Origin: a phage
Strand: one strand, 5' to 3'
Length of the DNA: 64,000 nucleotides
Sequence record: PZ402305.1
In this document: piece by piece, positions 28,814 through 42,701 of the stretch
How the letters are laid out: each line of letters begins with the position of its first letter
Position numbering within the stretch: the stretch's first letter is position 1
Made by a program: the position numbers and the translations under genes
The notes under the pieces: generated by a model
What the model saw: the letters and a program-made list of their open reading frames with translations, nothing else
The model's database searches: none
What the model was told of the DNA's origin: nothing

Positions 28814-29158
28814 ATGCAAGAGAGTAAAAATGTTCCGTTGAGTAGTTTACGTCTAATGAAGTTTTACAAAGCTTGGCTTGCTGGTGAGGTAGAAGGTCAC
28901 ACAACGAGTGGTTTGTGCATATGTTTGATTAAGTATGTAGAGGGAACATATCCTGATGAACTGTTACCTCGTCTACAACAGGAGATGAAATCACAGTTTA
29001 TTGGTGCAGGACTGGATTACAATTTCCCGTTTAATGAAGGTGGTTATGAGGAATACACCTTCGAACATAAAAAACATATTTGCCATAAAAACAAACATCG
29101 TATACAATGGGTGCTAGATAGAATTCAAGATTACGAAGGAGAGAAAAATGACAAATAG
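28814..29158 (+). CDS. Paralog family member 1 (FYxxWL / GLC / PFN / WVKDR family)
   Basis: FYKAWLAG, TSGLCICL, GLDYNFPFNE, RIQWVLDRI; GAGGAG RBS. Confidence 0.65.
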   Translation: MQESKNVPLSSLRLMKFYKAWLAGEVEGHTTSGLCICLIKYVEGTYPDELLPRLQQEMKSQFIGAGLDYNFPFNEGGYEEYTFEHKKHICHKNKHRIQWVLDRIQDYEGEKNDK

Positions 29159-29516
29159 TATTCCGTTGAGCAGTGCAACATTGCTTCGCTTCTATAAAGC
29201 ATGGATTGCCAACTATCCTGCAATGAATCGCACAACGAGTGGCTTATGTGGTTGTCTGGTAGATTATGTAAATGATTTTGTTGGTGAGACAACCAGAGAA
29301 GAAGATAGAAGATGGCGGGATAGTTTGTTGGACCGTTTGAAATATGAAATGAGGAAACAATTTACATGTGCAGGGCTGGACTACAATCTTCCGTTCAATA
29401 CAGATTGCATGGATTACCTTTCAGAGTGTATAAACTTGGCGTGTCATACCAACACGTTACGTCTTCAATGGGTGAAAGACAGAATTGAAGATGCAAATAA
29501 TGCTTGCATTGAATAA
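29148..29516 (+). CDS. Paralog family member 2
   Basis: FYKAWIAN, TSGLCGCL, GLDYNLPFN, RLQWVKDRI. Confidence 0.65.
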   Translation: MTNSIPLSSATLLRFYKAWIANYPAMNRTTSGLCGCLVDYVNDFVGETTREEDRRWRDSLLDRLKYEMRKQFTCAGLDYNLPFNTDCMDYLSECINLACHTNTLRLQWVKDRIEDANNACIE

Positions 29517-29566
29517 AGATGTTTGTATAATGGATGACATAACAGATAGCCAATGAGGAGATTGAA

Positions 29567-29776
29567 ATGTCAAATATGAAAACTGTATCCTTGTATTTAG
29601 CTAACACGGATCGTGTGCACACCCTTGCTAATGCAAGTCGTGTACTCGTGCAGTTCCGAAACTTTGCACCGTCCGTTGTGACAGGCAGTGAAACGTGTGT
29701 TATCGATTTCATTAACGAATACTTCCGAGGGAATCCGGTTGGTCGTTATTTCATTAAGGGTCTGAAGGATGCATAA
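29567..29776 (+). CDS. hypothetical protein (69 aa)
   Basis: Track ORF. Confidence 0.6.
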   Translation: MSNMKTVSLYLANTDRVHTLANASRVLVQFRNFAPSVVTGSETCVIDFINEYFRGNPVGRYFIKGLKDA

Positions 29777-29777
29777 T

Positions 29778-29999
29778 ATGAAACGCATGAAAATTCGTAT
29801 TGAGAATGATGGTGGTTATAAAGGATTGGCACATGCAAAATTTCCACTTGTGCTGGAAGCTACGGTGGAATACAGTGGGCTTGCTCATGTGCGATTCTCG
29901 AAGATGATGGAAGTGCAGGAATGGTTTTGGGACGAGATAGATGCACGAGAAGGGGAAGATTATGTTTTCTTTCCTCACGAATATGAAATTGTTTATTAA
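29778..29999 (+). CDS. hypothetical protein (73 aa), paralog of 33374..33595
   Basis: Shares MKIR / EWF / EG.DYVFF motifs with 33374..33595. Confidence 0.55.
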   Translation: MKRMKIRIENDGGYKGLAHAKFPLVLEATVEYSGLAHVRFSKMMEVQEWFWDEIDAREGEDYVFFPHEYEIVY

Positions 30000-30011
30000 A
30001 GGTTGTGTGCA

Positions 30012-30251
30012 ATGATCACACCACAACAGAATGAAGCAGCAATGGATCTTCTTGACAGTTTGTATTTCGATAATTGGTACTCTGAATGTGAATGGATGAA
30101 TATGCAAACTCTGAAAGAGAAGACAAAAGCGTTGATTACAGTAGATCAATTTCTTACAGAGACGGAAAGAATGAATTATGATATGGCATCTCGCGCACGA
30201 CGCGTTTCCATTTTCAATAAAATGTTAGCATTATGGGGAGGTAGAAAATGA
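30012..30251 (+). CDS. hypothetical protein (79 aa)
   Basis: Start set to first ATG. Confidence 0.55.
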   Translation: MITPQQNEAAMDLLDSLYFDNWYSECEWMNMQTLKEKTKALITVDQFLTETERMNYDMASRARRVSIFNKMLALWGGRK

Positions 30252-30709
30252 GACAACCATCTATACTGGAAGCGCATGTGCAATGTGTTGTAGATTATGT
30301 CAAAGAACACTCAAGTTTGTTGAATGTAACCTGTGCAGTGCAAAACGATGTAGGTATTGTCTGTGTGCAACATATCTTATCTGAAACTCGTTATGAAGTA
30401 TTTCGTGCCACGTTGTTTGGATGTGATCGAGTGCATGTAAACTTCCTGGACTCCAATTATCGTTATGCTTTAGAAAATATTGATGATTATCTTCCTTGCT
30501 CTCCGACAGGATATGTAATGGTAACAGCAAACGAAGTAACACCGAGCAACAGTGAACAGGAAGCTTTGTTACGGAAGAAAATACGCCAACTGCAAGTGTT
30601 GAATGAACTGAAAGAAGAGATTGAAAAAGAACTAAAAGAAGATTTTGGTATGCTTCCAAAAGACGCTTTGAAATGGTATGATGAGTTAGGAGGAGAGAAC
30701 AATGTTTAA
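30248..30709 (+). CDS. hypothetical protein (153 aa)
   Basis: Track ORF, ATGA overlap. Confidence 0.6.
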   Translation: MRQPSILEAHVQCVVDYVKEHSSLLNVTCAVQNDVGIVCVQHILSETRYEVFRATLFGCDRVHVNFLDSNYRYALENIDDYLPCSPTGYVMVTANEVTPSNSEQEALLRKKIRQLQVLNELKEEIEKELKEDFGMLPKDALKWYDELGGENNV

Positions 30710-31160
30710 AGAAGGTCATGTCTACCGTTTCCAGGATGAGGATTATATGCGATTATATTCTACCTTTGATAACAGTATTGCTGCTATCATTGGAGAGAAT
30801 TTTTTCGAGGTGTTGAGCACTGATGCAAATGGTAATATCTTGTCAATGGTTGTGATAGGTATGAGAGATGGTATTATCACTGCTAGTGATGGGGATCGTT
30901 ACATAATCAATTCTGCTCATATAGATTATTTTGTTGACGGTGGTATTCGTGGTGGTCGTGGAAAACCACAAGAAGAACCTGTTGATACAACAAAAGAAGA
31001 GTGGTATGTTGTAATGACTGATGACACCTGTATTTCTGGATTTGAAAGTTATGAAGAAGCTTTGAAAGAGGCAGCAGAGCATAAAATGTCTAATCCTACA
31101 GAAGAGGTTGAAGTTTATAAACGTTTGGTTGTTGCTACCATCGGCGTATCTTTTGTTTAA
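30702..31160 (+). CDS. hypothetical protein (152 aa)
   Basis: Track ORF. Confidence 0.6.
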   Translation: MFKEGHVYRFQDEDYMRLYSTFDNSIAAIIGENFFEVLSTDANGNILSMVVIGMRDGIITASDGDRYIINSAHIDYFVDGGIRGGRGKPQEEPVDTTKEEWYVVMTDDTCISGFESYEEALKEAAEHKMSNPTEEVEVYKRLVVATIGVSFV

Positions 31161-31173
31161 AAAGGGGAATGTT

Positions 31174-31611
31174 ATGTTTAAAGTTAATGCTGTTTATTGT
31201 TTCAAAAGTAAAGCTGCCTGTGAAGCTTTCTCTATGATCTCTGATGAAAATTTCAAAATGGCAGCTTTGATTGAAGGGTCTTGTTTCCGCGTCGAGGATG
31301 TTAGTGAATCAGGGTCTGTTTGCTCATTGACTTTATTGGACAGCGGGGATATTATTGAAGCTGGACAGTATCCGTTCAGGAGTTGGGAGATATTGTTAGC
31401 TCGCGGAGAGCGTAACTTTTTTATGTGCGTGTCTGCGGGGGAAGTTGTGAAAGAAACTAAGGATGTTTCTGTTTACAATTCTGAATTTATAAGTTATAGT
31501 GAGTATCAACATCTGGAAGGCATTGTTGGTCACTTGTTATCTCTGATTGACATTGAATGTGACCTGCCTGAATCATTGAAAGAAGAGTTGAAAGCATTAG
31601 ATCTGCTGTAA
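31174..31611 (+). CDS. hypothetical protein (145 aa)
   Basis: Start moved to ATG after AAGGGGAA. Confidence 0.6.
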   Translation: MFKVNAVYCFKSKAACEAFSMISDENFKMAALIEGSCFRVEDVSESGSVCSLTLLDSGDIIEAGQYPFRSWEILLARGERNFFMCVSAGEVVKETKDVSVYNSEFISYSEYQHLEGIVGHLLSLIDIECDLPESLKEELKALDLL

Positions 31612-31638
31612 TGTTTCGCACAACGAAAGGAGAATAAG

Positions 31639-31938
31639 ATGAATCTGACCGAACAGTTACGCCGTATTGCAAAAGAAGCTTCCTTCAACTTCCCTGTTGA
31701 AGAAGTGATCGAGACATGTTTTGCTGAAGCACGAGCGGGAAACTCTTCAAGAAATTTCACGCCATCTGATTTTGGTCTGAATAATTCTCCCACCCACCCA
31801 GAGCAGATCTACAATCAGGTGAAGTGGATGGATGAAGCAGTAGCAATTCTTCGTGAGCGTGGGCTTATTGTTTATAAAGAAATGGATCTGAACGGGGCAT
31901 ACGAGTGGATCACTATTGATTGGTCCGAGGTGAAATGA
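31639..31938 (+). CDS. hypothetical protein (99 aa)
   Basis: Track ORF. Confidence 0.6.
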   Translation: MNLTEQLRRIAKEASFNFPVEEVIETCFAEARAGNSSRNFTPSDFGLNNSPTHPEQIYNQVKWMDEAVAILRERGLIVYKEMDLNGAYEWITIDWSEVK

Positions 31939-32171
31939 TGAAAGGTAACAAGATGAAAGTTAATCAAGTGCCGAGCGCATACACTTTGTGGCTTGCGCGA
32001 GCGTTACACCAGACGATCAAAGACCCTAAGAAGCCAATGAAGAGTGGGAAGAAGTTTATGTCTAAGGGCAAAACAACCTTTGGCTTCACTCGTATGTCTA
32101 TCAAGATGAAAAGGCTGGGGTACAAGCCAAACTACGCTCGTTACCCTTCTGAATACAACTGGTTTGACTAA
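31935..32171 (+). CDS. hypothetical basic protein (78 aa)
   Basis: ATGA overlap; GAGGTGA upstream; Lys-rich. Confidence 0.55.
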   Translation: MMKGNKMKVNQVPSAYTLWLARALHQTIKDPKKPMKSGKKFMSKGKTTFGFTRMSIKMKRLGYKPNYARYPSEYNWFD

Positions 32172-32186
32172 AGAGGAGAACAAAAC

Positions 32187-32471
32187 ATGAAAACATCTAT
32201 TCGCGTAAAACATGATCCAAACAGCAGTTACCCATACGCGGATGTTGAACGTCACGAAGGAGACTATTACACCATAAAACGTAAAGTCCCAACTGATACA
32301 GGGTTTAACTTTGATGTTATTGCGCTGGATGATCAAGGTGTTGATAATCTGGTGAATGCATTACTCGCATTGAAGGAAGTACGATATGAAAATCAGACTA
32401 AAGGTAAAGTGGCTTTCGATTCTTGTGATCGTTTAGCCGAAGAGATTGCCGAATGGCGCGACACTCACTAA
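32187..32471 (+). CDS. hypothetical protein (94 aa)
   Basis: Track ORF. Confidence 0.6.
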   Translation: MKTSIRVKHDPNSSYPYADVERHEGDYYTIKRKVPTDTGFNFDVIALDDQGVDNLVNALLALKEVRYENQTKGKVAFDSCDRLAEEIAEWRDTH

Positions 32472-32486
32472 AACAGGAGAAAGACT

Positions 32487-32663
32487 ATGGCTACTTTTCA
32501 ACAATTGAAAGATGTTTCACGTTTAGTAAGAAAAATCCGAGAAGCAGACGCTGCTGTGCGGAATGCACTAACGCCAGCAGAGCGTGAAGATCTTGAAGAG
32601 GAGGTGAAAACAGCCGAGAATGCTTTTGCTGTGTATCTTTCAACCCTGTACACAGGAGGTTAA
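32487..32663 (+). CDS. small hypothetical protein (58 aa)
   Basis: Not in track; ACAGGAGA upstream; stop abuts next ATG. Confidence 0.45.
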   Translation: MATFQQLKDVSRLVRKIREADAAVRNALTPAEREDLEEEVKTAENAFAVYLSTLYTGG

Positions 32664-32978
32664 ATGTCAGAAGAACTTAAAGAATTTTATCAAGCATATC
32701 ATAACTGGCTGTTAGCTGGTGCTCCAGATAATAATCCTTTCTGGCATGATAAAGGATTATGTAGTTGCCTCTACCTTTGGACTGGAGGTTATGATGATCT
32801 AAATTATGAAATGCAAATGCAATTCCGTGAGGCAGGATTGTCTGAAGAATACCCGTTTGATGACGGAGACTGGTTTAAATATGATTTTGCACAAAGAAAC
32901 GGGCTATTGCATTTGAATGCTGCCCGTATAAAATGGGTAAAAGACCATGCTACACAGGAGGATGTGCAATGCCAATAG
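32664..32978 (+). CDS. Paralog family member 3
   Basis: FYQAYHNWLLAGAP, KGLCSCL, AGLSEEYPFD, RIKWVKDH. Confidence 0.65.
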   Translation: MSEELKEFYQAYHNWLLAGAPDNNPFWHDKGLCSCLYLWTGGYDDLNYEMQMQFREAGLSEEYPFDDGDWFKYDFAQRNGLLHLNAARIKWVKDHATQEDVQCQ

Positions 32979-33169
32979 TGTTTAGTTTCTTAGTAATTGT
33001 TATGGTTGTTCTTTTCGCGGCATGGCTTTGGGATTTTGACCCAGGAGCAGCGCAGCAAAGAGCTACAGACTGGAAAGAACAATGTATTGTGCTCAAACAT
33101 GAACGAAATGCGGAGAAATTTCTTGACCTGGAGTGTGATCGCCTTGTAAGATACAAGCAAGATAAATAA
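32969..33169 (+). CDS. small membrane protein (66 aa)
   Basis: Start moved to ATG after AGGAGG; N-terminal hydrophobic helix. Confidence 0.55.
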   Translation: MPIVFSFLVIVMVVLFAAWLWDFDPGAAQQRATDWKEQCIVLKHERNAEKFLDLECDRLVRYKQDK

Positions 33170-33183
33170 CCTTGAGGTGCAAA

Positions 33184-33372
33184 ATGGTAATTGAGATTAA
33201 ACTTGAATATGCTGGGGCTGTTGCTCTGATCGCACAAACGCTTGGAGCAAAGATTGAAGAAGTGTATATCAATGCCTGGAGCGTAGAGATTGATGTTCCT
33301 ATGGACAACATTGCTAATCGCTTGCTGGTGGCAGAGTGTGAACGCACCAACATAATCTACAAAGGAGCATAA
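33184..33372 (+). CDS. hypothetical protein (62 aa)
   Basis: GAGGTG then ATG. Confidence 0.55.
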   Translation: MVIEIKLEYAGAVALIAQTLGAKIEEVYINAWSVEIDVPMDNIANRLLVAECERTNIIYKGA

Positions 33373-33373
33373 T

Positions 33374-33595
33374 ATGAAAATTAGAGTTTGTGATGTATTG
33401 GGTTATGTTGGTTTTGAGAATGTTCAGATTCCTTTTGTTGTTGAAGCACATCTTGTTAGCGATGACATGACAACATTCTTTGTTACGATAGAAGAAATGT
33501 CCAAAGTTGAGGGATGGGAGTGGTTTGAAGAAGATGTTTGGGAAGGTTGTGATTACGTATTTTTCTCTGATGAAGTGAATATTCTTGCGGAGTAG
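33374..33595 (+). CDS. hypothetical protein (73 aa), paralog of 29778..29999
   Basis: Shared motifs with 29778..29999. Confidence 0.55.
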   Translation: MKIRVCDVLGYVGFENVQIPFVVEAHLVSDDMTTFFVTIEEMSKVEGWEWFEEDVWEGCDYVFFSDEVNILAE

Positions 33596-33597
33596 GT

Positions 33598-33804
33598 ATG
33601 TCTTGTTTTACAAAAGCAGTGTCCATATGTAAGAAACAGTATGAAAGCGATTACGGAATATTTAATATTCCAGCAGATCATACGGAGTATTGTTCATGTG
33701 GTGGCAGAATGAAGAAAACAGTGATTTATGCGGATAGTGGAGACGAACTTGTTCCGGTTATGGTTTGCAAAGCTTGTCATTCTGTTAAAACATTAAAAGC
33801 GTAA
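33598..33804 (+). CDS. zinc-ribbon protein (68 aa)
   Basis: CSCGGRMKK ... CKACH. Confidence 0.55.
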   Translation: MSCFTKAVSICKKQYESDYGIFNIPADHTEYCSCGGRMKKTVIYADSGDELVPVMVCKACHSVKTLKA

Positions 33805-33885
33805 GGAGTCGGGACACCCGACGATTGGAGCTAAAAATTTTGCGTACAACCCTTTCCGCCCAACAGGGGCGCGTCGGGTAAATAA
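33805..33885 (+). terminator. Tandem GC hairpins after operon
   Basis: GAGTCGGGACACCCGAC and GCCCAACAGGGGCGCGTCGGG; approximate. Confidence 0.4.
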
Positions 33886-33899
33886 AGAGGAGAGTTTAT

Positions 33900-34298
33900 A
33901 TGAAAAAGATCATCGTAGGTTTATTGTTACTCATTGCATCACTTGGAACAGCAAATGCGTCTCAAGTTTATGAGTGTGTGTCAGATGTGGTTGTTAAAAA
34001 TCTGAAAGGTGAAGTTATTTCTGGTCCTAAGAAAATGGCTTCTGTTGTCATTAATAAAGATAACTCCTTTATCCTTAAAAATTCAGGTGGTGCTTTGATG
34101 AGTGGCATTCTGCAACACACGGGAGAAAAAAGTAAAGATGGTAGTGCTATGTACGGTTCACAACAGTTTATTGGCACTACTGAAGTTGTGATGATGCGCA
34201 CAGAGTATCGAGACACTTTGGCTTGGTTTGCATTTCTAAAAAATGATAAAACAATAACGAATGTTCTTACTCTAGAAGCTGATTGTACGCAACGGTAA
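33900..34298 (+). CDS. secreted protein with signal peptide (132 aa)
   Basis: MKKIIVGLLLLIASLGTANASQ. Confidence 0.6.
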   Translation: MKKIIVGLLLLIASLGTANASQVYECVSDVVVKNLKGEVISGPKKMASVVINKDNSFILKNSGGALMSGILQHTGEKSKDGSAMYGSQQFIGTTEVVMMRTEYRDTLAWFAFLKNDKTITNVLTLEADCTQR

Positions 34299-34308
34299 GG
34301 GGGATATT

Positions 34309-34557
34309 ATGCTGAATGTTTTTACTGCTGATCGTGTAGGAACACCGATTACCGAAGAAGAACGTGCAGAGATTACAAAAGAGTTGGAAGATCTTTACCG
34401 TGTTTTCTCTGATGAAGAAAGCATTAAAAAAGATGCTGAAAAGATGACAGATCTGTTGGGTTTTACTTGGTCCCCAGAATGGACCGCTGTTGCTCTTAGT
34501 GCAGATATTTGGGGGTATGAAGAAACCCTACGCACTGGGGTAGTGGCAGCTTGGTAA
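34309..34557 (+). CDS. hypothetical protein (82 aa)
   Basis: Track ORF. Confidence 0.6.
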   Translation: MLNVFTADRVGTPITEEERAEITKELEDLYRVFSDEESIKKDAEKMTDLLGFTWSPEWTAVALSADIWGYEETLRTGVVAAW

Positions 34558-34629
34558 TATGATAGAGACTATCATTTTCATTGTTCTGGCTATTATTTTG
34601 GGTTTCTTAATATATGAATAGAGGTATTT

Positions 34630-35085
34630 ATGACTAAAATGAGACATTACGCTGTAAACTGCAACGATGCTTGGCGTTTGTGTCCTGATGATCCGACAGA
34701 AGGCACATTTGTAAGATATGAGGATTATAAAGAGTTATCGGATGCTGTAATCGCATTGTTAACTGATATCCGTTCACGTTATCCAGGACAAGATTTCACT
34801 TGCCCTCACATCAAACTTCTTGCTTGCTTGGTAGAAGGTGAGAAAGAAGTGGAAGATGGCTTCAAGCGTGTAGAGTATCAAGGTGAAACTTTAGATGTTC
34901 CTGAATTTGTTAATTATATTGCAACAGATTCAAGTGGCGAGCGTTATGGTTACACTCATAAACCGGAGATTCCAGATTTCGCTTATGCGTGGCGTATTCC
35001 TTATGAAGTTTTTAATGTTGCAGATTGCTGGTATTTAGGAGAAGGAAACAACCTTAATTGGCGTGATTCCTTGGTTCAGGTTTAA
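34630..35085 (+). CDS. hypothetical protein (151 aa)
   Basis: Track ORF. Confidence 0.6.
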   Translation: MTKMRHYAVNCNDAWRLCPDDPTEGTFVRYEDYKELSDAVIALLTDIRSRYPGQDFTCPHIKLLACLVEGEKEVEDGFKRVEYQGETLDVPEFVNYIATDSSGERYGYTHKPEIPDFAYAWRIPYEVFNVADCWYLGEGNNLNWRDSLVQV

Positions 35086-35089
35086 CAAT

Positions 35090-35353
35090 ATGAAAGAGAC
35101 ATTGCCAGCAGCATACCGTTTGAATGATGAACGTATTTGGGAGTGGACCGACGTTTCTTGTTTTTACCCTGAAATAGTTCAATATTGGCGAGCAAAAGGG
35201 TGTGTTGTAGTTATCAACCCATGTGGACCAGTGGATGAAGATTGCTTGTATCTCGATGGAAAGTGGCACAGTTATTGTCGCTGGCCTTTTGAGTGGATGT
35301 GTAAAGAAGATCTCCCAGAGGGTTGGGAGTATCCAAAAGCAAATAGGAGATAA
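35090..35353 (+). CDS. hypothetical protein (87 aa)
   Basis: Start moved to ATG after upstream stop. Confidence 0.55.
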   Translation: MKETLPAAYRLNDERIWEWTDVSCFYPEIVQYWRAKGCVVVINPCGPVDEDCLYLDGKWHSYCRWPFEWMCKEDLPEGWEYPKANRR

Positions 35354-35354
35354 T

Positions 35355-35717
35355 ATGTCTAAAGATTTTGTTGAAATGTTTGTCAAAGATGAAGAAACTG
35401 GTTTAGGCACAGGTTTCATTTGTGAAGAAACCTTTAAGCGTGAACAAGAAAAAGCTATTCTTATGCGAAACTATGATCACGCATTAGAACAATGGAAAAA
35501 TGCAGAACAAAAATGCAAAAACCTTTATGCAGAAAATAGAAAACTACAAGATCAAATGGAGTTGTTAGCTATCAGTTTACGATCTCTCATTTTGGCTGTA
35601 GAAGATGGTTTTAAAAATCCAGATGGTTTTCCTGTGAGCGATATTGAACATGATTTGTATCTTGCTCGTGGTGCTTACTTCTATGTTAAACAGAAGTCTG
35701 TAGAAGGAGAGAAGTGA
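35355..35717 (+). CDS. hypothetical coiled-coil protein (120 aa)
   Basis: Start moved to ATG after upstream stop; track ORF 35223.. overlaps upstream gene. Confidence 0.55.
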   Translation: MSKDFVEMFVKDEETGLGTGFICEETFKREQEKAILMRNYDHALEQWKNAEQKCKNLYAENRKLQDQMELLAISLRSLILAVEDGFKNPDGFPVSDIEHDLYLARGAYFYVKQKSVEGEK

Positions 35718-35914
35718 TGGAAGAAAAACTGGAACGTATTATCGAGTTAGCTATGTCTATTGGCTACGACGATTGTTTTCTCCAAACTATTGGAGAAACA
35801 GAGAACGATTACGACTCTTGGGTGAAAGAGTTGGAAGAACTTAAAACTTCCTTGATTGCTGACTTTGCTGAAGCAGAGGATAAAGCAGATCGTTACAACT
35901 ATCTGTGTCGATAA
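35714..35914 (+). CDS. hypothetical acidic protein (66 aa)
   Basis: Track ORF. Confidence 0.6.
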   Translation: MMEEKLERIIELAMSIGYDDCFLQTIGETENDYDSWVKELEELKTSLIADFAEAEDKADRYNYLCR

Positions 35915-35917
35915 GCC

Positions 35918-35950
35918 TTGACATTTATTTTATGTATGGTATACATACAT
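35918..35950 (+). promoter_or_regulatory. sigma70-like promoter
   Basis: TTGACA-N17-ATACAT; approximate. Confidence 0.4.
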
Positions 35951-35976
35951 TATCAACGTGAGCAAGGTGGTGTAAT

Positions 35977-36249
35977 ATGAATAAAGATCGGTTTCTTTCT
36001 TTAGTCGCGGAAGCTCCTTTTGATGTTCTTGGAGTGAGATTATGGAAAGACAGAAACTATGGGTTAGATGTTCAAACATACTCTCTTTGGTTGGTTGGGG
36101 AGCACAGCTTAGATGAAAGCTTGTGCATGGGTAGGGATTCTCGTTCCCTCTGTTTAAAGTTCAGAAGCTTAGAACGCGCAAACAAAGAGCAAGAAAAACT
36201 AACGAGGTGGCTAAATGAAAACAAGCGCAAGGTTGATGGAGTTTTATAA
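35977..36249 (+). CDS. hypothetical protein (90 aa)
   Basis: Track ORF. Confidence 0.6.
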   Translation: MNKDRFLSLVAEAPFDVLGVRLWKDRNYGLDVQTYSLWLVGEHSLDESLCMGRDSRSLCLKFRSLERANKEQEKLTRWLNENKRKVDGVL

Positions 36250-36541
36250 AATTTATCTAGCATGGATTGATGTTGGTGCTCCTGATGGTAAACCTTTTCG
36301 GCGGGATTGCGGTTTGTGTGCCAACTTATTCGACTATGTGCACAGAGGCAATTACAACCCCATTATAACAACCTTATCAGATGAAATGCACGCGCAGTTC
36401 CACTATAAAGGGTTGAGTCAAGAACTCCCTTTCAATGAGAACTATGATGCATATGTTTTAGAGTCAGATGCAGATGCCTGTCACCTGAACGTGGACAGGA
36501 TTAATTGGGTGAAAGATCGTATTGCAGAGGAGAATGAATAG
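36215..36541 (+). CDS. Paralog family member 4
   Basis: FYKIYLAWIDVGAP, CGLCANL, KGLSQELPFNE, RINWVKDRI; GAGGTGG RBS; start may instead be ATG at 36236. Confidence 0.6.
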   Translation: MKTSARLMEFYKIYLAWIDVGAPDGKPFRRDCGLCANLFDYVHRGNYNPIITTLSDEMHAQFHYKGLSQELPFNENYDAYVLESDADACHLNVDRINWVKDRIAEENE

Positions 36542-36768
36542 TGGCTGCTTATAATTGGTATGAACTTGAAGCTGTTTGTCAGTTTTATGACTCAATAGTT
36601 CTGCGTGATCCAATCTGTCAAGAATTGAGTCGCCGTGCAAGTGCATTGGCAATCCGTGTTAAAATAAACGGTTGGAACGCAGATTTGGAAAAAGAGTTGG
36701 AATTTCTCTTAGAAAACACGCGGGTCTTCCGCAAAGTGTTCCCTGAATGGTTTGAGATGGAAGAATGA
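36541..36768 (+). CDS. hypothetical protein (75 aa)
   Basis: Track ORF. Confidence 0.6.
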   Translation: MAAYNWYELEAVCQFYDSIVLRDPICQELSRRASALAIRVKINGWNADLEKELEFLLENTRVFRKVFPEWFEMEE

Positions 36769-36986
36769 TCATGTGGATTGTGCGTCTTAAGTATGATGGC
36801 CCTAATCCTTGGGTGAGAACAGTTTGCGGATGTGATACTAAAGAGTCAGCAGATAAAGCTGGAAGAATGATAAGTGCCTTTTATAATAGTAAACCTCTTT
36901 GTTTAGAAATGTCTGGTGTGGTTTGTATGAGCATGTTCGAATACTACTCTTATGAGATCAAAGAACACCAAGGGGAATGGAAATAA
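36765..36986 (+). CDS. hypothetical protein (73 aa)
   Basis: Track ORF. Confidence 0.6.
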   Translation: MIMWIVRLKYDGPNPWVRTVCGCDTKESADKAGRMISAFYNSKPLCLEMSGVVCMSMFEYYSYEIKEHQGEWK

Positions 36987-36990
36987 ATAG

Positions 36991-37020
36991 TTGACAGAAG
37001 GATCTGTCTTTGTCATAATC
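36991..37020 (+). promoter_or_regulatory. sigma70-like promoter
   Basis: TTGACA-N17-CATAAT. Confidence 0.5.
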
Positions 37021-37048
37021 ATCTCATCGAAACAAAGAGGAGAAAATC

Positions 37049-37462
37049 ATGAAAAAGTTTATTTGCACCCGTTCCACTAACAGTGATATCCTTGTAGGTA
37101 AGGTTATCAAAGGAGAACTCTTCCATGCAAACGGTAAGAAATATATTTTGCTGAAAGATTCTTTCAACGGGGAATATCCGCGCTGCACTTTCTTCAATTA
37201 CAACACTCCATTTGCTTTAGAAGGAGATGCTTGGGACTGGGCTGAACTCAATCCTTGTTGTGAGGAAGAAGAATCTATGTTCTTGGGTTTAAACGTTTAC
37301 CGTGTAGATTACACCATGTGCGGAGCGGAACATTCTGTTCGCGTAGAAGCCGAATCCAAACTACAAGCACCTTTCAAGGCGGGATTGACTTTGGGTCATT
37401 GTTTGGCAAACATTGAAGATGTTGTGATCCAAAGGGTTGTTTTAGAGAAAGAGGCTATTTGA
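37049..37462 (+). CDS. hypothetical protein (137 aa)
   Basis: Track ORF. Confidence 0.6.
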   Translation: MKKFICTRSTNSDILVGKVIKGELFHANGKKYILLKDSFNGEYPRCTFFNYNTPFALEGDAWDWAELNPCCEEEESMFLGLNVYRVDYTMCGAEHSVRVEAESKLQAPFKAGLTLGHCLANIEDVVIQRVVLEKEAI

Positions 37463-37514
37463 GAGAAGACGGCACAATATTTAAATATAAAGATTAACCA
37501 CAAAGGAGATAGAT

Positions 37515-37814
37515 ATGCAAGTTGAAGACCTGATCAAAATTTTGAATGAAGCCAAAGAGAAAGGTGCTATCAAAGACTGGAAACGTGAAACAAGTGAAGA
37601 TCTATCTCACTGTTGCCGAGAATTTTACATCGAAGGTATTGCTGACGATCATTATATTATCGAATGGTATATCAACTTAATGACTCTTAAGCACGGTTCG
37701 TTTGAGGTTTGGTTTGATGACATTGATGTAAATGGTTTTCATCCTGGCTATAAAATCGCTATGCAGTTATCTTATCGTAGAGAAGTTGTAGCACATTTAG
37801 GTTTACATAACTAA
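37515..37814 (+). CDS. hypothetical protein (99 aa)
   Basis: Track ORF. Confidence 0.6.
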   Translation: MQVEDLIKILNEAKEKGAIKDWKRETSEDLSHCCREFYIEGIADDHYIIEWYINLMTLKHGSFEVWFDDIDVNGFHPGYKIAMQLSYRREVVAHLGLHN

Positions 37815-37824
37815 GGAGAAAAGA

Positions 37825-38148
37825 ATGCAAGCAGTTGTTAACGAAGCTATTATGAACTTATCCTTCTTGTTAGCTGGTTTAGGAGGTGTTCTCATAGGTT
37901 TGGCTCTTATCTGGTGTATTCGTCGATTAATCGGGTACCGACAAAAAGGTGTTTCATGTTTTGTATCTTACAATTTTACAACTGCTTACAGCAATGAAGT
38001 TGGATCTGGCAATGCTCAAGCATTTTTACCAACATATCCTCCTACGGTGGAAGATATTCGAAACTTGGAAGTAGAACTTATGGGACTAAGTGATAACTAT
38101 ACATCTCTAGTTATTCAAAATATTTTTCGACTAAAACAGGAGGCGTGA
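37825..38148 (+). CDS. membrane protein (107 aa)
   Basis: Hydrophobic N-terminal helix. Confidence 0.6.
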   Translation: MQAVVNEAIMNLSFLLAGLGGVLIGLALIWCIRRLIGYRQKGVSCFVSYNFTTAYSNEVGSGNAQAFLPTYPPTVEDIRNLEVELMGLSDNYTSLVIQNIFRLKQEA

Positions 38149-38361
38149 ATGAAGGTACATTACCCTCATCCATTTGATCCTAAAAACAAAGCCGTAATTC
38201 TTCGTCAGTGGCAACGGGTTTGTCGTACTAAATGTCCAATCAATAGCCCACACAATGTAGACAAGGACTATCTTGGGACATTTGTTGAATACACTTACAT
38301 AGACAAAAACAAGCGTAAACAACATGTCGAGGAATACTGCTTAAGAGTAGAATGGCTGTAA
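38149..38361 (+). CDS. hypothetical protein (70 aa)
   Basis: Track ORF. Confidence 0.6.
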   Translation: MKVHYPHPFDPKNKAVILRQWQRVCRTKCPINSPHNVDKDYLGTFVEYTYIDKNKRKQHVEEYCLRVEWL

Positions 38362-38374
38362 ATAATAAATACCT

Positions 38375-38405
38375 TGACAAGTGTTTATTCGTTTTGTAAA
38401 GTGAG
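38375..38405 (+). promoter_or_regulatory. sigma70-like promoter of recombinase gene
   Basis: TTGACA-N17-TAAAGT; approximate. Confidence 0.45.
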
Positions 38406-38431
38406 AATACAGCAATGGTTTAGGAGTGGTT

Positions 38432-39103
38432 ATGAAAAAGTTTGTTGTTTACAGTCGTCTTTCTAAACAGAAAAAAGGTGAGGCACAATATGGTATGGAG
38501 AGCCAAGAGAATGATATCCGTTACTTCTTAGACTCTGTGCCTGATGCGGAAGTTATTGGTCAATTTTCTGAATACTATTCGGGTAAGGGCGATTGGAAGC
38601 AACGTAAGGAACTGGTTAAAGCGGTTGAAATGTGTAAAGCTACCGGAGCAACTTTATTGGTAGCTAAAGTTGACCGCTTGGGTCGTAATAACGCCTCCGT
38701 AGCAACTCTTCTAGAAATGATTGATGTTAAGATAGCCATCATGCCAGACGCAGATAAAATGGTTATACAGCTTCTGTCTGTTCTGGCTGAACAAGAAGTT
38801 AGAGGTATTGCTGATCGTATTAAAAAGGGTCTTGCTGTAGCAAAAAGCAAAGGTGTTTTATTAGGCAGTGCCAATCCTAAAACTGCCGCTGCACGTAGAA
38901 AAGGAAAAATGGAATACAACTCTGTTAAAGCAGACGCTTTTGCAGAGACATTCCGTGAACGCTTGGAGATCCTTAGAGATTTAAATACACCTTACAAAAC
39001 TATTGCTGAAAAATTCAATAGTAAGAAAATAGCAACAGCACGTGGTGGTAAATGGGATGCTAAAACTGTTTCTCGTTTGTGTGCCAGACTGAACATTAAA
39101 TAG
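38432..39103 (+). CDS. Serine recombinase (resolvase/invertase family)
   Basis: VYSRLSK, TLLVAKVDRLGRNNASVATLLEMI, LLSVLAEQEVRGIADRIKKGLAVAKSKG align with Hin/Gin catalytic domain; C-terminal GGKWDAKTVSRL; start ATG after AGGAG. Confidence 0.75.
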   Translation: MKKFVVYSRLSKQKKGEAQYGMESQENDIRYFLDSVPDAEVIGQFSEYYSGKGDWKQRKELVKAVEMCKATGATLLVAKVDRLGRNNASVATLLEMIDVKIAIMPDADKMVIQLLSVLAEQEVRGIADRIKKGLAVAKSKGVLLGSANPKTAAARRKGKMEYNSVKADAFAETFRERLEILRDLNTPYKTIAEKFNSKKIATARGGKWDAKTVSRLCARLNIK

Positions 39104-39111
39104 GAGAGGAT

Positions 39112-39534
39112 ATGAAACAAGAAAATGAACCTGTAGATCACTTAATCATGCTGTCAGCCCTTTTTGCCGGATGGGACGTATTTTTTGAAAATTTGTTCAA
39201 TTCTGCTACAGATGGTTCCGATTTTATGCGCCAGTTTAAACGACGAACTGTTGAGGACTATGCTTTCTATTCAGGTCGGATTGAAAAAGGTTACGAAGAT
39301 ACAAATACAACACTCACCATTAAAGTTTTAGATGTGATGTTTAGTGTTATAGATGCTATCGACGAAAGTCTTCCGATCCTAGATAATTGTAATACGAAAG
39401 TCTATGTTTACAAAATAGCTCGTGCTTATGTGTCTGCAAACAGTTGTCTTCTTTCCACCCAGATTGCCGTGAACAATCTTGCCAACTTGTTTGATGAAGG
39501 AGAAACTTTTTATGACAATCGATTTGAAGTGTAA
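39112..39534 (+). CDS. hypothetical protein (140 aa)
   Basis: Track ORF. Confidence 0.6.
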   Translation: MKQENEPVDHLIMLSALFAGWDVFFENLFNSATDGSDFMRQFKRRTVEDYAFYSGRIEKGYEDTNTTLTIKVLDVMFSVIDAIDESLPILDNCNTKVYVYKIARAYVSANSCLLSTQIAVNNLANLFDEGETFYDNRFEV

Positions 39535-39877
39535 GAGGATTCTTTTAGATTTCTATAATAATTGGTTAGAACACCTCCGGCTCTTTCCAAGAGAAAGTGG
39601 TTACGCTGATGTTGGCTTATGCCGAGGTCTACGTATGTATATAAGTGATGAATTTCGGGCCGAGCATTCTTTAGCATATTCTGTTTATGGTATGCAATTA
39701 GCCAGTTTTGAAAACGCTGGCTTAGATACAACTTTCCCATTTAACACAGCAAAATCTTTTGAGCAAGAGTGTAAGGAAAAACGTTGCATGTTTAATGAAA
39801 AACGTGTACAGTGGGTTAAGGATCGAGTTAAACAACTGGAACAAGAGTTGGATTTCTTCTATGATGAGGCAGAATAA
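39512..39877 (+). CDS. Paralog family member 5
   Basis: FYNNWLEH, VGLCRGL, AGLDTTFPFN, RVQWVKDRV; GAAGGAGAAA RBS. Confidence 0.6.
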   Translation: MTIDLKCKRILLDFYNNWLEHLRLFPRESGYADVGLCRGLRMYISDEFRAEHSLAYSVYGMQLASFENAGLDTTFPFNTAKSFEQECKEKRCMFNEKRVQWVKDRVKQLEQELDFFYDEAE

Positions 39878-40149
39878 TGGATAGACAAACCTTAAAAACA
39901 ATGGCAGATGCCACTAATTCCCCGTACTTTGAAAAAGTAAGTAAATTGGTAGCTCAAGCCGCAGAGGAAGGATATTATAACATAAACATCCACAACCCAA
40001 GTCTTATACTAGAAATGCCAAGTGATAAGAAGATACAAGAGAGTATCTGTGAAGGTATTGTTAGTTACTGGCGCGAGCGTGGGTGTGGTGCAAACATGGC
40101 TTTAGACAGTGCAAACATTGTAAGATATATAAATATTTCTTGGGGGTGA
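39877..40149 (+). CDS. hypothetical protein (90 aa)
   Basis: Track ORF. Confidence 0.6.
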   Translation: MDRQTLKTMADATNSPYFEKVSKLVAQAAEEGYYNINIHNPSLILEMPSDKKIQESICEGIVSYWRERGCGANMALDSANIVRYINISWG

Positions 40150-40153
40150 TTTT

Positions 40154-40765
40154 ATGATTCAATGCACTCATATCCAAATTACTTGGAGAGATGAACTTTA
40201 CCATTTGGGACAATTTACTGTAGGGGAAACATACCCTGTCATTAAACATAATCCTAACATCGCAAACTTTGATAGGATGGTTCTTGTTGAGGACGATCTG
40301 GGTCAAACTTATTCTTTAGATCTAAAATATCCGTTTTCTTACGGCTACGATTGGATCGTTACTTTTGAAGACGTGGAGGAAAATAAAACAATGAACGAAA
40401 AAAATTCTTGGTATTATCGTTGTGAACTGCCGCCAGTAGGTGAAAAGGTTATCTTTGTTCCTGATTTGGAAAGATATTCTTGGGACAGTTCTTATTCTGT
40501 TCCTAAAGAAGGCACCGAAGTTGAAGTTATTGCACATCGCACGACTTCGCATGGTAACGATGTAGCAGTTGTTTTCTGGGATGATGAAGGCGCTGCTTGT
40601 GCAGGTGGCTTTGTTGCAGGTAACTTTGAACCCCTGCCAGATCCTTTGAAGGAGGCAATTTTAGGCGTAGCTTCTTTTGGACTCTCTTACACGTCTGCAC
40701 AGGAGATCGTAGAAGGTATTTTAAACGGTACTGTTCCAAACGAAATTTTCAAACAGATTAAATAA
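40154..40765 (+). CDS. hypothetical protein (203 aa)
   Basis: Track ORF. Confidence 0.6.
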   Translation: MIQCTHIQITWRDELYHLGQFTVGETYPVIKHNPNIANFDRMVLVEDDLGQTYSLDLKYPFSYGYDWIVTFEDVEENKTMNEKNSWYYRCELPPVGEKVIFVPDLERYSWDSSYSVPKEGTEVEVIAHRTTSHGNDVAVVFWDDEGAACAGGFVAGNFEPLPDPLKEAILGVASFGLSYTSAQEIVEGILNGTVPNEIFKQIK

Positions 40766-40800
40766 CAGTTGCACCCCGTTCTGCGGGGTGTTATTGTATA
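40766..40800 (+). terminator. Rho-independent terminator
   Basis: GCACCCCGTTCTGCGGGGTGTTATTG. Confidence 0.5.
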
Positions 40801-40816
40801 TGTAAAGGAGGCGCTA

Positions 40817-41155
40817 ATGTATTACACTGAAGACTACATATTGTATAACTTTTTTAAAGGTTGGTTGAAATGGGCGGAACAAGCTCCTGTCGGAGATTGT
40901 GTTTTTCCTTGGGATTCTCGTCAAGGCTTGTGTCGTTGTTTGGAAGATTGGCTTATAACCACAAACTACAATTCAGAAACTAAGAAATCTACATCAAACA
41001 GATTAAAAATGTTGTTTGAAGAAGATGGTTTAGATCCAATTTATCCTTTCGGTGAGGAAAGTTTCCACAATGGTCTTTTCCTTGGCACTCAACATTATGA
41101 TAAAGATCGTGTAGATTGGGTAAAAGAAAAGGTAGCACAGTATGAATGGGGTTAA
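40817..41155 (+). CDS. Paralog family member 6
   Basis: FFKGWLKWAEQAP, QGLCRCL, DGLDPIYPFGE, RVDWVKEKV; AAAGGAGG RBS. Confidence 0.6.
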   Translation: MYYTEDYILYNFFKGWLKWAEQAPVGDCVFPWDSRQGLCRCLEDWLITTNYNSETKKSTSNRLKMLFEEDGLDPIYPFGEESFHNGLFLGTQHYDKDRVDWVKEKVAQYEWG

Positions 41156-41345
41156 GAATTATCACCGCTGGTTAGAAAGCTATCTTAAGAAATGTGAACT
41201 TGGTGTTCCAGGTTATACTTACGACACGGATGAGATTCTTGACGAAATGGAAGTTTGGTTTAAAGAGCCTCGTGAACTATTGGAAAACATTCTAATGGCT
41301 TGGGATGGTACGGCACAAAGCATTGAAGGAGGTAGAAATGAGTAA
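41142..41345 (+). CDS. hypothetical protein (67 aa)
   Basis: Track ORF. Confidence 0.6.
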   Translation: MNGVKNYHRWLESYLKKCELGVPGYTYDTDEILDEMEVWFKEPRELLENILMAWDGTAQSIEGGRNE

Positions 41346-41472
41346 GAAATTGTTTAATATTCGTGAGAACCGTGATGGATCGTTCTCTGTAGTCAATGAG
41401 TTTAACGTTTCGGTTGGGACTTTTATTACTAAACGTCAAGCAGAACAAGTAAGAGATACTTTAAACAAGTAA
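41338..41472 (+). CDS. small hypothetical protein (44 aa)
   Basis: Not in track; GGAGGTAGAA upstream; overlaps previous stop. Confidence 0.4.
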   Translation: MSKKLFNIRENRDGSFSVVNEFNVSVGTFITKRQAEQVRDTLNK

Positions 41473-41489
41473 ATTTTTAAGGGGGACTT

Positions 41490-41909
41490 ATGTTAGGTAA
41501 GATCAAAGCTTTTTTCAAACGTATTGTTGAAGGAAGTCCAACAGAAGGTGCATTAGGAAGATCTCTAACAGGAGAACCACTTGCCATAATTTCTATCAGT
41601 CGGCATGGGGGATATTCCATTCGACAAACACCTTTAGGTATAAAAGGTAGTATGCTTTCTTGGACAATATCTCAAGTTGGTGATAACAGACTTGCAGCTA
41701 TAGCATTGCTTCGTGGGGAGTATGACTATTGTTTATCAGCATCTTGTAAAAAGCACCTTATAGAGCACATTAAAGACAGAGTAGAAAGAGAAGGCGGATA
41801 CTTTTTCGAAACTAAGAGAAACGAACAAGGAACTCTTGACTTCACTAAGGTTTACTGGGACAATCATACTCGTCAAACTGTTGAACAACTTCTGGAGGAA
41901 AGATGTTAA
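41490..41909 (+). CDS. hypothetical protein (139 aa)
   Basis: Track ORF. Confidence 0.6.
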   Translation: MLGKIKAFFKRIVEGSPTEGALGRSLTGEPLAIISISRHGGYSIRQTPLGIKGSMLSWTISQVGDNRLAAIALLRGEYDYCLSASCKKHLIEHIKDRVEREGGYFFETKRNEQGTLDFTKVYWDNHTRQTVEQLLEERC

Positions 41910-42112
41910 AAGCTTTTGCTGTATACTCTACTGTAGGATTCTTTTATTGGATTATAGTTGTTGTTGGATGTTGGTTGGGTTCTTCTGTTGTGATGGGAGA
42001 ATGGTTAACATACAATGTATTTGAATGGGATGTAGTTTGTAGATCATTACTTGTTATATGGACTGCTATTGTTTGTTGGATAACTGTTAGTCTAACATTA
42101 GATCTATATTGA
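41903..42112 (+). CDS. small membrane protein (69 aa)
   Basis: Two hydrophobic helices. Confidence 0.6.
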   Translation: MLKAFAVYSTVGFFYWIIVVVGCWLGSSVVMGEWLTYNVFEWDVVCRSLLVIWTAIVCWITVSLTLDLY

Positions 42113-42214
42113 TTAATAGATGGTAGATAGATGATCATAGTTTATCTACCTTCACTTACGTTTCATACCTCACTATCGTGAGTAACATGAAACATTATTA
42201 TATAGAAATCTACT

Positions 42215-42271
42215 ACTCGCTATCGCTCGTAAACATATGTTTAGGGTACCATATTTTTTTGAAAAAGTCAA
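42215..42271. repeat. Conserved ~55 bp intergenic element, copy B
   Basis: ACTCGCTATCGCTCG + hairpin (TAAACA-TA-TGTTTA) + TAGGGTACCATATTTTTTTGAAAAAGTCAA; same orientation as copy A. Confidence 0.6.
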
Positions 42272-42404
42272 TGCTGACTCACCTATCAATTATCTGTTTA
42301 AGATAAGTCTTACCTATCAATCTAACTCTTAACTAGTATTGTACCTATAGTAAGACTATTCCTATAGTTATTAACCATCTTCTTCTGTAGAATGTAATTA
42401 GATC

Positions 42405-42435: not shown

Positions 42436-42472
42436 GTGTCTCACAGGTGAATAATACCGAACAGGAGGAAGA

Positions 42473-42688: not shown

Positions 42689-42701
42689 TCCAGGAGAAAA
42701 T

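What the first reader, a model, noticed from the sequence alone, without database searches (positions are those of the whole stretch)
28814..41155. Six-member paralogous family of ~110 aa proteins dispersed through one operon region
ORFs at 28814, 29148, 32664, 36215, 39512 and 40817 share the ordered motifs FY..WL..(AP) / GLC..L / (A)GLD(Y).(F)PF(N) / R(I/V).WVKDR(I/V) but are otherwise diverged. Six diverged copies within 12 kb suggests diversifying selection, as seen in host-interaction or anti-defence families. I cannot assign the family to a named domain.
Basis: seen in the sequence. Interest (0 to 1): 0.7.

Follow-up and report, generated by a model that had tools for sequence, protein, structure and literature searches.

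The report
Expanded unknown early phage protein family
Six real, anciently diverged copies of a small helical protein of unknown function (the family of coliphage N4 gp3) sit in the early-gene block of a phAPEC8-like E. coli phage; the family is widespread in phages, is in no domain database and resembles no solved structure, but each copy is evolving conservatively, not under diversifying selection.

The parts
28814..29158 (+). Paralog p1 (114 aa), ortholog of phAPEC8 gp245. It is the first gene after the 1.65 kb non-coding region and overlaps p2 by 11 nt.
   Evidence: ORF. SD sequence GAGGAG. phrog_2510 at E 5.6e-26. 100% identical to the SKA64 and phAPEC8 orthologs, omega 0.00. Absent from vB_Ec-G1.
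29148..29516 (+). Paralog p2 (122 aa), ortholog of phAPEC8 gp244. It is the tandem partner of p1; the two are 45% identical and each other's closest relatives.
   Evidence: (E 5.8e-26). Omega 0.40 over four orthologs.
32664..32978 (+). Paralog p3 (104 aa), ortholog of phAPEC8 gp233.
   Evidence: E 8e-29. Its closest relative is the external representative P0029 (48.5%), ahead of the best in-genome paralog at 41%. Omega 0.03.
36215..36541 (+). Paralog p4 (108 aa), ortholog of phAPEC8 gp222. It is the member closest to the family consensus and was the one used for the structure model.
   Evidence: E 6.9e-32. AF2 model with pLDDT 95.8 and five helices. Omega 0.23 over five orthologs.
39512..39877 (+). 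Paralog p5 (121 aa), ortholog of phAPEC8 gp214. It lies two genes downstream of the serine recombinase and lacks the usual His90 (it has Met).
   Evidence: (E 2.2e-26). The start agrees with the GenBank annotation of relatives. Omega 0.03.
40817..41155 (+). Paralog p6 (112 aa), ortholog of phAPEC8 gp211. It is the most divergent copy, 23-31% identical to the others.
   Evidence: (E 6.1e-27). Omega 0.08.
28814..46000 (+). Same-strand block of about 48 small genes that holds all six copies. It is inferred to be an early, accessory gene block. Apart from a serine recombinase (38426-39103), its products have no recognisable function.
   Evidence: ORF orientation and positive GC skew. The ten larger non-family genes scanned match only unknown-function PHROGs, apart from the serine recombinase (Pfam Resolvase) and a 65-aa protein that hits a PHROG labelled 'DNA ligase'. 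Early timing is inferred from the position of homologs in N4, JG068 and phi92.

Best explanation
**Shown**
- The six genes are old paralogs of a large, apparently phage-restricted family of ~100-aa, five-helix, mildly acidic, soluble-looking domains.
- The family comprises PHROG 2510, coliphage N4 gp3, phi92 gp006/gp010, and phAPEC8 gp245, gp244, gp233, gp222, gp214 and gp211.
- In this genome type the family is confined to one same-strand block of small genes that begins right after a long conserved non-coding region.
- Each copy is kept by purifying selection.
- The number and identity of copies differ among related phages.

**Inferred**
- The proteins are made early in infection, in the cytoplasm.
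- They are accessory host-takeover or counter-defence factors, not core replication or virion proteins.
- The invariant core (Cys35 at the N-terminus of helix 2, Pro72-Phe73, Arg95 and Trp98, with Glu57, Gln61, Glu83, His90 and Asn92 highly conserved) forms one shared functional site, or the scaffold for it.
- The variable surface and loop residues give each paralog a different partner or specificity. A phage would then carry a panel of them and exchange members with other phages.
- The domains work in pairs. This follows from natural two- and three-domain fusions and from overlapping tandem genes such as p1/p2.

The molecular target is not known.
For: **Family reality and membership**
- establish the six as one family.
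- N4 gp3, JG068 gp5, and phi92 gp006 and gp010 match the family HMM at E 2e-21, 1e-19, 5e-28 and 2e-23.

**Breadth and phage restriction**
- 1,858 representatives at E <= 1e-3.
- 255 phage records but only 1 plasmid record, a P1-like phage-plasmid.
- All named members are phage proteins, or E. coli entries on ~150 kb phage-sized contigs.
- All 18 BFVD structural matches at E <= 1e-3 that carry a description are uncharacterised phage proteins; five carry none.

**Early position**
- N4 gp3 lies among gp1-gp14, upstream of RNAPII. PMC4496689 describes gp1, gp2 and RNAPII as early products.
- JG068 gp5 lies between the annotated host promoters and the first terminator.
- The phi92 members lie within 4 kb of the left terminal repeat.
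- In the window, p1 is the first gene after the non-coding region.

**Accessory character**
- Copy number is 5, 6, 7, 10 and at least 10 in relatives, including a seven-gene tandem array.
- p1 is missing in vB_Ec-G1.
- The family is absent from the other ~85 kb of the genome.

**Constraint**
- Omega is 0.00-0.40.
- The invariant residues are listed.

**Cytoplasmic and soluble**
- pI is 4.5-6.2 and there is no N-terminal hydrophobic segment of the kind seen in a few relatives.

**Pairing**
- Seventeen two-domain proteins keep the core motif in both halves.
- The two-domain model has pLDDT 94.3 and pTM 0.75.
Against: - No experiment on any member was found.
- No known domain is fused to any of the six long or extended members examined.
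- No conserved neighbouring gene recurs across phage groups.
- Early expression in this phage is inferred from position only. The promoter scan is not enriched over shuffles: 63 sites against 56 +/- 7 expected.
- The invariant residues could be purely structural.
- A few relatives carry N-terminal transmembrane segments, so the site of action may differ among members.
Confidence: 0.4

Rival explanations
1. The domain is a small enzyme with a cysteine-centred active site (Cys35 with His90, Asn92 and Glu57/Glu83, and Arg95 binding the substrate). It would chemically modify or cleave a host or phage molecule early in infection, and the paralogs would differ in substrate.
For: Cys35 and Arg95 are invariant in 123 diverse sequences. 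Asn92 is conserved at 91%, Gln61 at 86%, Glu57 at 85%, His90 at 83% and Glu83 at 73%. Cys35 sits at the N-terminus of a helix. Both halves of the tandem fusions retain Cys, Pro-Phe and Arg. That is more conserved polar residues than a 100-aa helical bundle needs for folding.
Against: p5 lacks His90 (it has Met) and p6 has Asp in place of Asn92. No structural similarity to any enzyme fold was found. A domain of about 100 aa that is entirely helical is small for an enzyme.
Confidence: 0.2
2. The proteins are sponges or binders of a small nucleotide-type immune signal or metabolite. Oligomers would sequester the ligand through the conserved Arg and aromatic residues, in the manner of Acb2 or Tad1/Tad2.
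For: The proteins are small, early and probably oligomeric. Arg95 and Trp98 are invariant and there are many conserved aromatic residues: Tyr11, Tyr/Trp14, Trp17, Phe28, Phe62, Phe73 and Tyr80. Tandem fusions imply multimers. The comparison with sponge proteins rests on my own knowledge of those families.
Confidence: 0.1
3. The proteins regulate the phage's own gene expression or DNA transactions, as transcription factors or DNA-binding proteins.
Confidence: 0.08
4. This is the first reader's model: a lineage-specific burst of duplications whose copies are being driven apart by positive (diversifying) selection on their sequences.
For: There are six copies within 12 kb at 23-45% identity. p2 and p4 have the highest omega values of the family, 0.40 and 0.23.
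Against: All omega values are below 1 and comparable to the neighbouring genes. Four of the six are closer to homologs in other phages than to any copy in their own genome. There are no duplication scars at the DNA level. dS between paralogs is saturated, so dN/dS between the paralogs themselves cannot be estimated.
Confidence: 0.05

Closest known systems
PHROG phrog_2510 (unknown function), which includes coliphage N4 gp3, phi92 gp006/gp010, Burkholderia phage JG068 gp5, and phAPEC8 gp245/244/233/222/219/214/211
   Same: Direct sequence-family membership. All six hit phrog_2510 at E 1e-26 to 1e-32. The family HMM recovers N4 gp3, JG068 gp5, and phi92 gp006 and gp010. The size, the five-helix prediction and the early-region position are shared.
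   Different: Nothing separates the six from this family. The family itself has no assigned function, no Pfam or NCBIfam model and no solved structure. N4-like and T7-like phages carry one copy, whereas Stephanstirmvirinae carry 2 to at least 10.
Multigene families of small early accessory proteins in large virulent phages, and anti-defence genes that vary by gain, loss or amplification (for example T4 dmd/tifA-type loci and anti-CRISPR loci); this comparison rests on my own knowledge
   Same: The genes are small, sit in early blocks and are dispensable-looking. Copy number and repertoire differ between close relatives, and members appear to be exchanged between phage lineages.
   Different: No member of this family has a demonstrated target or phenotype. 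Its core is far more conserved across distant phages (Rhizobium to Escherichia) than is typical of anti-CRISPR-like proteins.
Small oligomeric sponge proteins that sequester immune signals (Acb2, Tad1, Tad2)
   Same: They are of similar size, are phage accessory proteins and act as multimers (my own knowledge of those families). Here multimer formation is only suggested, by the natural fusions.
   Different: No detectable sequence or fold similarity to any solved chain. The multi-copy expansion is not explained by this model.
DNA-mimic anti-restriction proteins (Ocr, ArdA)
   Same: Both are early-expressed, acidic, helical phage or plasmid proteins.
   Different: This family is only mildly acidic: pI 4.5-6.2 for the six, with the wider family ranging up to 9.3. 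It has no fold match and is essentially absent from plasmids.

Membership tests
PHROG phrog_2510 / N4 gp3-like family | A significant match to the family profile over the whole ~100-aa domain. | tested here: met
   All six match at E 6e-26 to 7e-32 and cover profile positions ~4-113. In the reciprocal direction, an HMM of 123 members recovers N4 gp3 (E 2e-21), JG068 gp5, and phi92 gp006 and gp010.
PHROG phrog_2510 / N4 gp3-like family | The conserved core motif: G-L-C at the start of helix 2, P-F, and R-x-x-W-V in the last helix. | tested here: met
   C35, P72, F73, R95 and W98 are invariant in 123 sequences and present in all six. G33, L34 and V99 are at least 98% conserved.
Any Pfam / NCBIfam family | A match above the curated threshold. 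| tested here: not met
   No family reaches its threshold for the six or for the 123 diverse members (the two stray hits each involve 1 of the 123 sequences).
Known anti-phage defence system components (PADLOC-DB) | A match to a PADLOC model. | tested here: not met
   No matches at E <= 1.
Solved anti-defence or host-takeover proteins (Acb2, Tad1/2, Ocr, ArdA and others in the PDB) | Sequence or fold similarity to a solved chain. | tested here: not met
Curated anti-defence families (dbAPIS / AntiDefenseFinder type HMM sets) | A match to a curated anti-defence model. | not testable with these tools
   No such library is offered. The PHROGs annotation of every matching family is 'unknown function'.
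DNA-mimic anti-restriction proteins (Ocr/ArdA-like) | Very strong negative charge that mimics the DNA backbone. | tested here: not met
   Net charge at pH 7 is -2 to -10 and pI is 4.5-6.2. The family median pI is 5.5 and the maximum is 9.3.
Gene family under diversifying (positive) selection | dN/dS above 1, or clearly elevated relative to neighbouring genes, among orthologs. | tested here: not met
   Pooled omega is 0.00, 0.40, 0.03, 0.23, 0.03 and 0.08. In the first analysis the five family genes scored had a median of 0.08, against 0.15 for 40 neighbouring genes. Site-level tests were not run because there are too few divergent orthologs.
Early (pre-replicative) phage genes | Transcription in the first minutes of infection. 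| not testable with these tools
   Only positional evidence is available. No transcriptome for this phage group was found.

The most novel reading that the evidence does not exclude
The N4 gp3-like domain is a previously unrecognised superfamily of phage counter-defence or host-takeover effectors with a new helical fold and a conserved Cys/His/Asn/Arg site. Large myoviruses such as phAPEC8 carry interchangeable panels of 5 to at least 10 specificity variants, an arms race fought by repertoire turnover and not by point mutation. Each variant would neutralise a different host factor or defence system.
Probability: 0.3. Interest if true: 0.75.

Novelty: new member of a known kind. Interest (0 to 1): 0.45.

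Why it matters
This is one of the larger phage protein families still missing from domain databases. It has about 1,900 clusters at 50% identity, no Pfam model and no solved or recognisable fold. It is also the most expanded gene family in the early block of a phage group now used in therapy work, the phAPEC8/phi92-like phages. It has a single-copy member, gp3, in the genetically tractable model phage N4, so its function is directly testable. If it proves to be a counter-defence or host-takeover module, it would explain a sizeable part of the dark matter in these genomes and add a new fold to that toolkit. If it proves dispensable everywhere, it is simply another ORFan family.

Tried and rejected
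1. **bas54_0140 lead.** HIDEN-SEQ (bioRxiv 10.1101/2025.11.20.689424) reports bas54_0140, a 99-aa protein of unknown function next to a long essential intergenic region in an rV5-like phage, as an anti-defence gene. I fetched Bas54 (MaxBurger, MZ501093). The protein does not match the family HMM, and there is no member anywhere in those 31 kb. Rejected.
2. **Conserved gene module.** p2 and p3 are each followed two genes later by a member of a second small family (29769 and 33374). This adjacency holds only within Phapecoctavirus and is absent from N4, JG068, phi92 and L010. The intervening genes are unrelated. It reflects synteny and is not a functional module.
3. **Fused domains as a clue.** The long members P0102, P0104 and P0016 have no significant Pfam domain.
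5. **Word-indexed protein searches.** These returned only near-identical orthologs and no informative names. Cluster look-ups gave only 'hypothetical protein'.
6. **The search for related loci with alignments.** It failed because no stretch was conserved enough. With p4 alone it gave 2 loci. The afdb50 fold library was unavailable.
7. **Literature.** I found nothing on phrog_2510, N4 gp3, phAPEC8 early genes or Stephanstirmvirinae transcriptomes.
8. **dN/dS between the paralogs themselves.** Not attempted. At 23-45% amino-acid identity the synonymous sites are saturated.
9. **Rfam on the upstream non-coding region.** No match.
Full report
**1.

The six ORFs are present at the stated coordinates on the + strand. 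They are 28814-29158, 29148-29516, 32664-32978, 36215-36541, 39512-39877 and 40817-41155. Each start codon has a Shine-Dalgarno sequence 5-9 nt upstream. Deposited relatives annotate genes of matching size and position at these sites.

The six-way alignment has 15 invariant columns.

- Pairwise BLASTP identities are 23-45%, with E-values from 3e-4 to 4e-32.
- All six match one PHROG, phrog_2510 ('unknown function'), at E 6e-26 to 7e-32.
- A profile of the six recovers only these six from every six-frame ORF of the window; the next hit has E = 0.81.
- An all-against-all comparison shows this is the largest paralog family in the window. The only others are two pairs.

**2. Where the window comes from**

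The region is 96-98% identical to many Phapecoctavirus genomes (Stephanstirmvirinae; phAPEC8-like E. coli myoviruses of about 150 kb). In phAPEC8 the orthologs are gp245, gp244, gp233, gp222, gp214 and gp211. All are annotated 'hypothetical protein'.

The window plus two further phAPEC8 stretches cover the whole genome type. The remaining ~85 kb, which holds the replication, nucleotide-metabolism, tRNA and virion modules, has no further member (best E 0.2). The family is therefore confined to a single + strand block of about 48 small genes (28.8-46 kb).

That block starts immediately after a 1.65 kb non-coding region. The ten larger non-family genes of the block that I scanned match only unknown-function PHROGs, apart from a serine recombinase and a 65-aa protein whose PHROG is labelled 'DNA ligase'.

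**3. What the family is**

A profile of the six, searched exhaustively against 1.84 billion representative proteins, finds 1,858 clusters at E <= 1e-3 and 894 at E <= 1e-10.

- Most of the 150 best-scoring representatives are 95-125 aa single-domain proteins.
- Some are two- or three-domain tandem fusions, for example P0007, P0008 and BcepSaruman gp339 (P0016).
- A few carry N-terminal hydrophobic segments.

tblastn with one member hits 255 phage records. Their hosts are mainly Escherichia, Klebsiella, Rhizobium, Achromobacter, Salmonella, Erwinia, Ralstonia and Delftia. It hits only one plasmid, and that is a P1-like phage-plasmid.

The family HMM confirms four members in well-known phages:

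| Protein | Position in its genome |
|---|---|
| Coliphage N4 gp3 | among gp1-gp14, upstream of RNAPII |
| Burkholderia phage JG068 gp5 | between the annotated host promoters and the first terminator |
| phi92 gp006 and gp010 | within 4 kb of the left terminal repeat |

The N4 review describes gp1, gp2 and RNAPII as early products transcribed by the injected virion RNA polymerase. It says nothing about gp3.

There is no Pfam, NCBIfam or PADLOC match for the six or for 123 diverse members. PDB sequences give no significant match either. Every named member in public sources is 'hypothetical' or 'uncharacterised'.

**4. Structure and conserved residues**

AlphaFold2 was run on the 123-sequence alignment. 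It gives a very confident model for p4: pLDDT 95.8 and pTM 0.88, with five helices at residues 5-19, 34-42, 50-64, 77-85 and 93-107.

- Foldseek against BFVD returns 18 matches at E <= 1e-3. All that carry a description are uncharacterised phage proteins.

The family thus appears to have a fold without a solved representative. One caveat applies: small helical bundles are hard to classify.

Across the 123 sequences (mean column identity 25%), Cys35, Pro72, Phe73, Arg95 and Trp98 are invariant. Leu7, Phe10, Tyr11, Gly33, Leu34, Phe62, Leu67, Asn92 and Val99 are at least 90% conserved. Glu57 (85%), Gln61 (86%), His90 (83%) and Glu83 (73%) are also strongly conserved.

Both halves of the tandem fusions keep the motif. 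Among the six window copies, p5 has Met in place of His90 and p6 has Asp in place of Asn92. I could not access the model coordinates, so I did not verify whether these residues cluster in space.

The six are mildly acidic, with pI 4.5-6.2.

**5. Evolution: constraint on each copy, turnover of the repertoire**

I compared each gene with its orthologs in vB_Ec-G1, SKA64, phAPEC8, PsgM04F and an IMG/VR contig, using Nei-Gojobori dN/dS.

| Copy | Pooled omega |
|---|---|
| p1 | 0.00 |
| p2 | 0.40 |
| p3 | 0.03 |
| p4 | 0.23 |
| p5 | 0.03 |
| p6 | 0.08 |

In the first analysis, the five family genes scored had a median of 0.08. The median for 40 other genes of the block was 0.15, with an interquartile range of 0.08-0.23.

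The copies are old. Only the tandem pair p1/p2 are each other's closest relatives (45%). p3, p4, p5 and p6 each have closer relatives among external representatives than in their own genome: 48%, 53%, 60% and 37%, against 41%, 41%, 33% and 31%. At the DNA level, only the conserved R..WVKD coding motif and a short p1/p2 stretch remain alike, at 62-74% identity.

What varies is gene content.

- vB_Ec-G1 has 5 copies, with p1 missing.
- The window and SKA64 have 6.
- phAPEC8 has 7. The extra copy is gp219, which is 54% identical to p4. In the window its site is a 62-bp spacer with a promoter-like site and a hairpin.
- PsgM04F has 10.
- Metagenomic relatives have at least 7 and at least 10, including a seven-gene tandem array within 3 kb.
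- In the more distant relatives, the slots syntenic to p3, p5 and p6 hold members only 25-55% identical to them.

This pattern fits gain, loss and replacement of old sub-types. It does not fit positive selection on point substitutions. The rest of the block is also mosaic, so the turnover is not unique to this family.

**6. How it most likely works**

*Shown.* The family is a constrained, apparently phage-restricted helical domain. It sits at the early end of unrelated virulent phage genomes. It is expanded and variable in copy number in Stephanstirmvirinae. It occurs as tandem genes and as tandem-domain fusions.

*Inferred.*
- The proteins are expressed early in the cytoplasm.
- They are accessory factors acting on the host, in takeover or counter-defence.
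- The invariant core provides a common site or scaffold, and the variable surfaces provide specificity.
- The domains act in pairs.

I put about 0.4 on this composite. None can be excluded without experiments.

**7. Leads that failed**

The most promising lead was a reported anti-defence gene of unknown function in the rV5-like phage Bas54, bas54_0140 (99 aa). It proved unrelated to the family. A recurring neighbour family (29769/33374) is linked only within the genus. No fused domains, informative names or papers were found.

**8. Comparison with what is known, and verdict**

By every test available, the six are members of PHROG 2510, the N4 gp3-like family. They are not members of any functionally defined family. 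They behave like other multigene families of small accessory early proteins in large virulent phages, so I rate them as a new member of a known kind, not as categorically new. The genes themselves are already deposited as hypothetical proteins in more than 100 genomes.

The interest lies in four things:
- the size of the family;
- its absence from domain and structure databases;
- its strong core conservation;
- the single-copy member in phage N4, which makes it tractable.

Interest is 0.45.

Noticed in passing
window 27164-28813: A 1.65 kb stretch with no ORF of 50 aa or more lies directly upstream of p1. It opens with a strong intrinsic terminator (27172-27194), followed by an A-rich, G-poor segment (27200-28000: A 0.41, G 0.14). 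It is 91-98% identical in other Phapecoctaviruses. Its first 720 nt are still 92% identical to the divergent PsgM04F, which is more conserved than many neighbouring proteins. Several GenBank records of the genus start inside it. There is no Rfam match and no similarity to the insertion-free ~2 kb intergenic region reported for rV5-like Bas54.
   Followed up: partly
window 29769-29999 and 33374-33595 (+); 6055-6360 and 6360-6668 (-): There are two further small paralog pairs, at 38% and 44% identity. The first pair sits two genes downstream of p2 and p3 respectively. That arrangement is conserved within the genus but not in other phage groups.
   Followed up: yes
window 36986-37049; L003 (phAPEC8) 10254-10583: phAPEC8 and several relatives carry a seventh family member here: gp219, or the P0026 cluster, which is 53-54% identical to p4. 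The window instead has a 62-bp spacer containing the best sigma-70-like promoter match of the region (36991-37019, 11/12 with an extended -10) and an overlapping hairpin (36993-37008).
   Followed up: partly
L001 (vB_Ec-G1) 2222-2596, against window 28814-29516: vB_Ec-G1 has a single gene where the window has the overlapping tandem pair p1/p2. That gene is 96% identical to p2 and 56% identical to p1, so p1 is absent from an otherwise ~97% identical phage.
   Followed up: partly
L016 (Logan SRR17326406 contig, 66 kb) 1-3023: A related phage carries seven family members back to back within 3 kb, and at least 10 within 20 kb. This is the largest expansion seen.
   Followed up: partly
window 38426-39103: A serine recombinase or DNA invertase gene (Pfam Resolvase, E 5e-18) sits in the middle of the block of small unknown genes. 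It is conserved in all relatives examined, at 74-100% amino-acid identity. No inverted-repeat target was looked for.
   Followed up: no
window 42923-43120: A 65-aa protein with a CxxC...CxxC zinc-ribbon-like motif is annotated inconsistently in relatives, as 'DNA ligase' in phAPEC8 and vB_Ec-G1 and as 'restriction alleviation protein, Lar family' in SKA64. Pfam gives only a sub-threshold DUF5351 hit. The 'DNA ligase' label comes from phrog_13972 and looks like an annotation artefact for so small a protein.
   Followed up: partly
search results and L004: Records labelled 'Campylobacter phage' (for example B15, with 96% nucleotide identity over 14 kb) and 'Pseudomonas phage PsgM04F' (whose p4 ortholog is 85% identical at the protein level) match this E. 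coli Phapecoctavirus region. The host labels of these records may be unreliable.
   Followed up: no
window 30702-31160 and 31174-31611: Two adjacent genes are annotated 'goF mRNA metabolism modulator' in vB_Ec-G1. Here they match only unknown-function PHROGs (phrog_3710, phrog_22975, phrog_622). They share phrog_3710 weakly, so they may be distant paralogs.
   Followed up: partly
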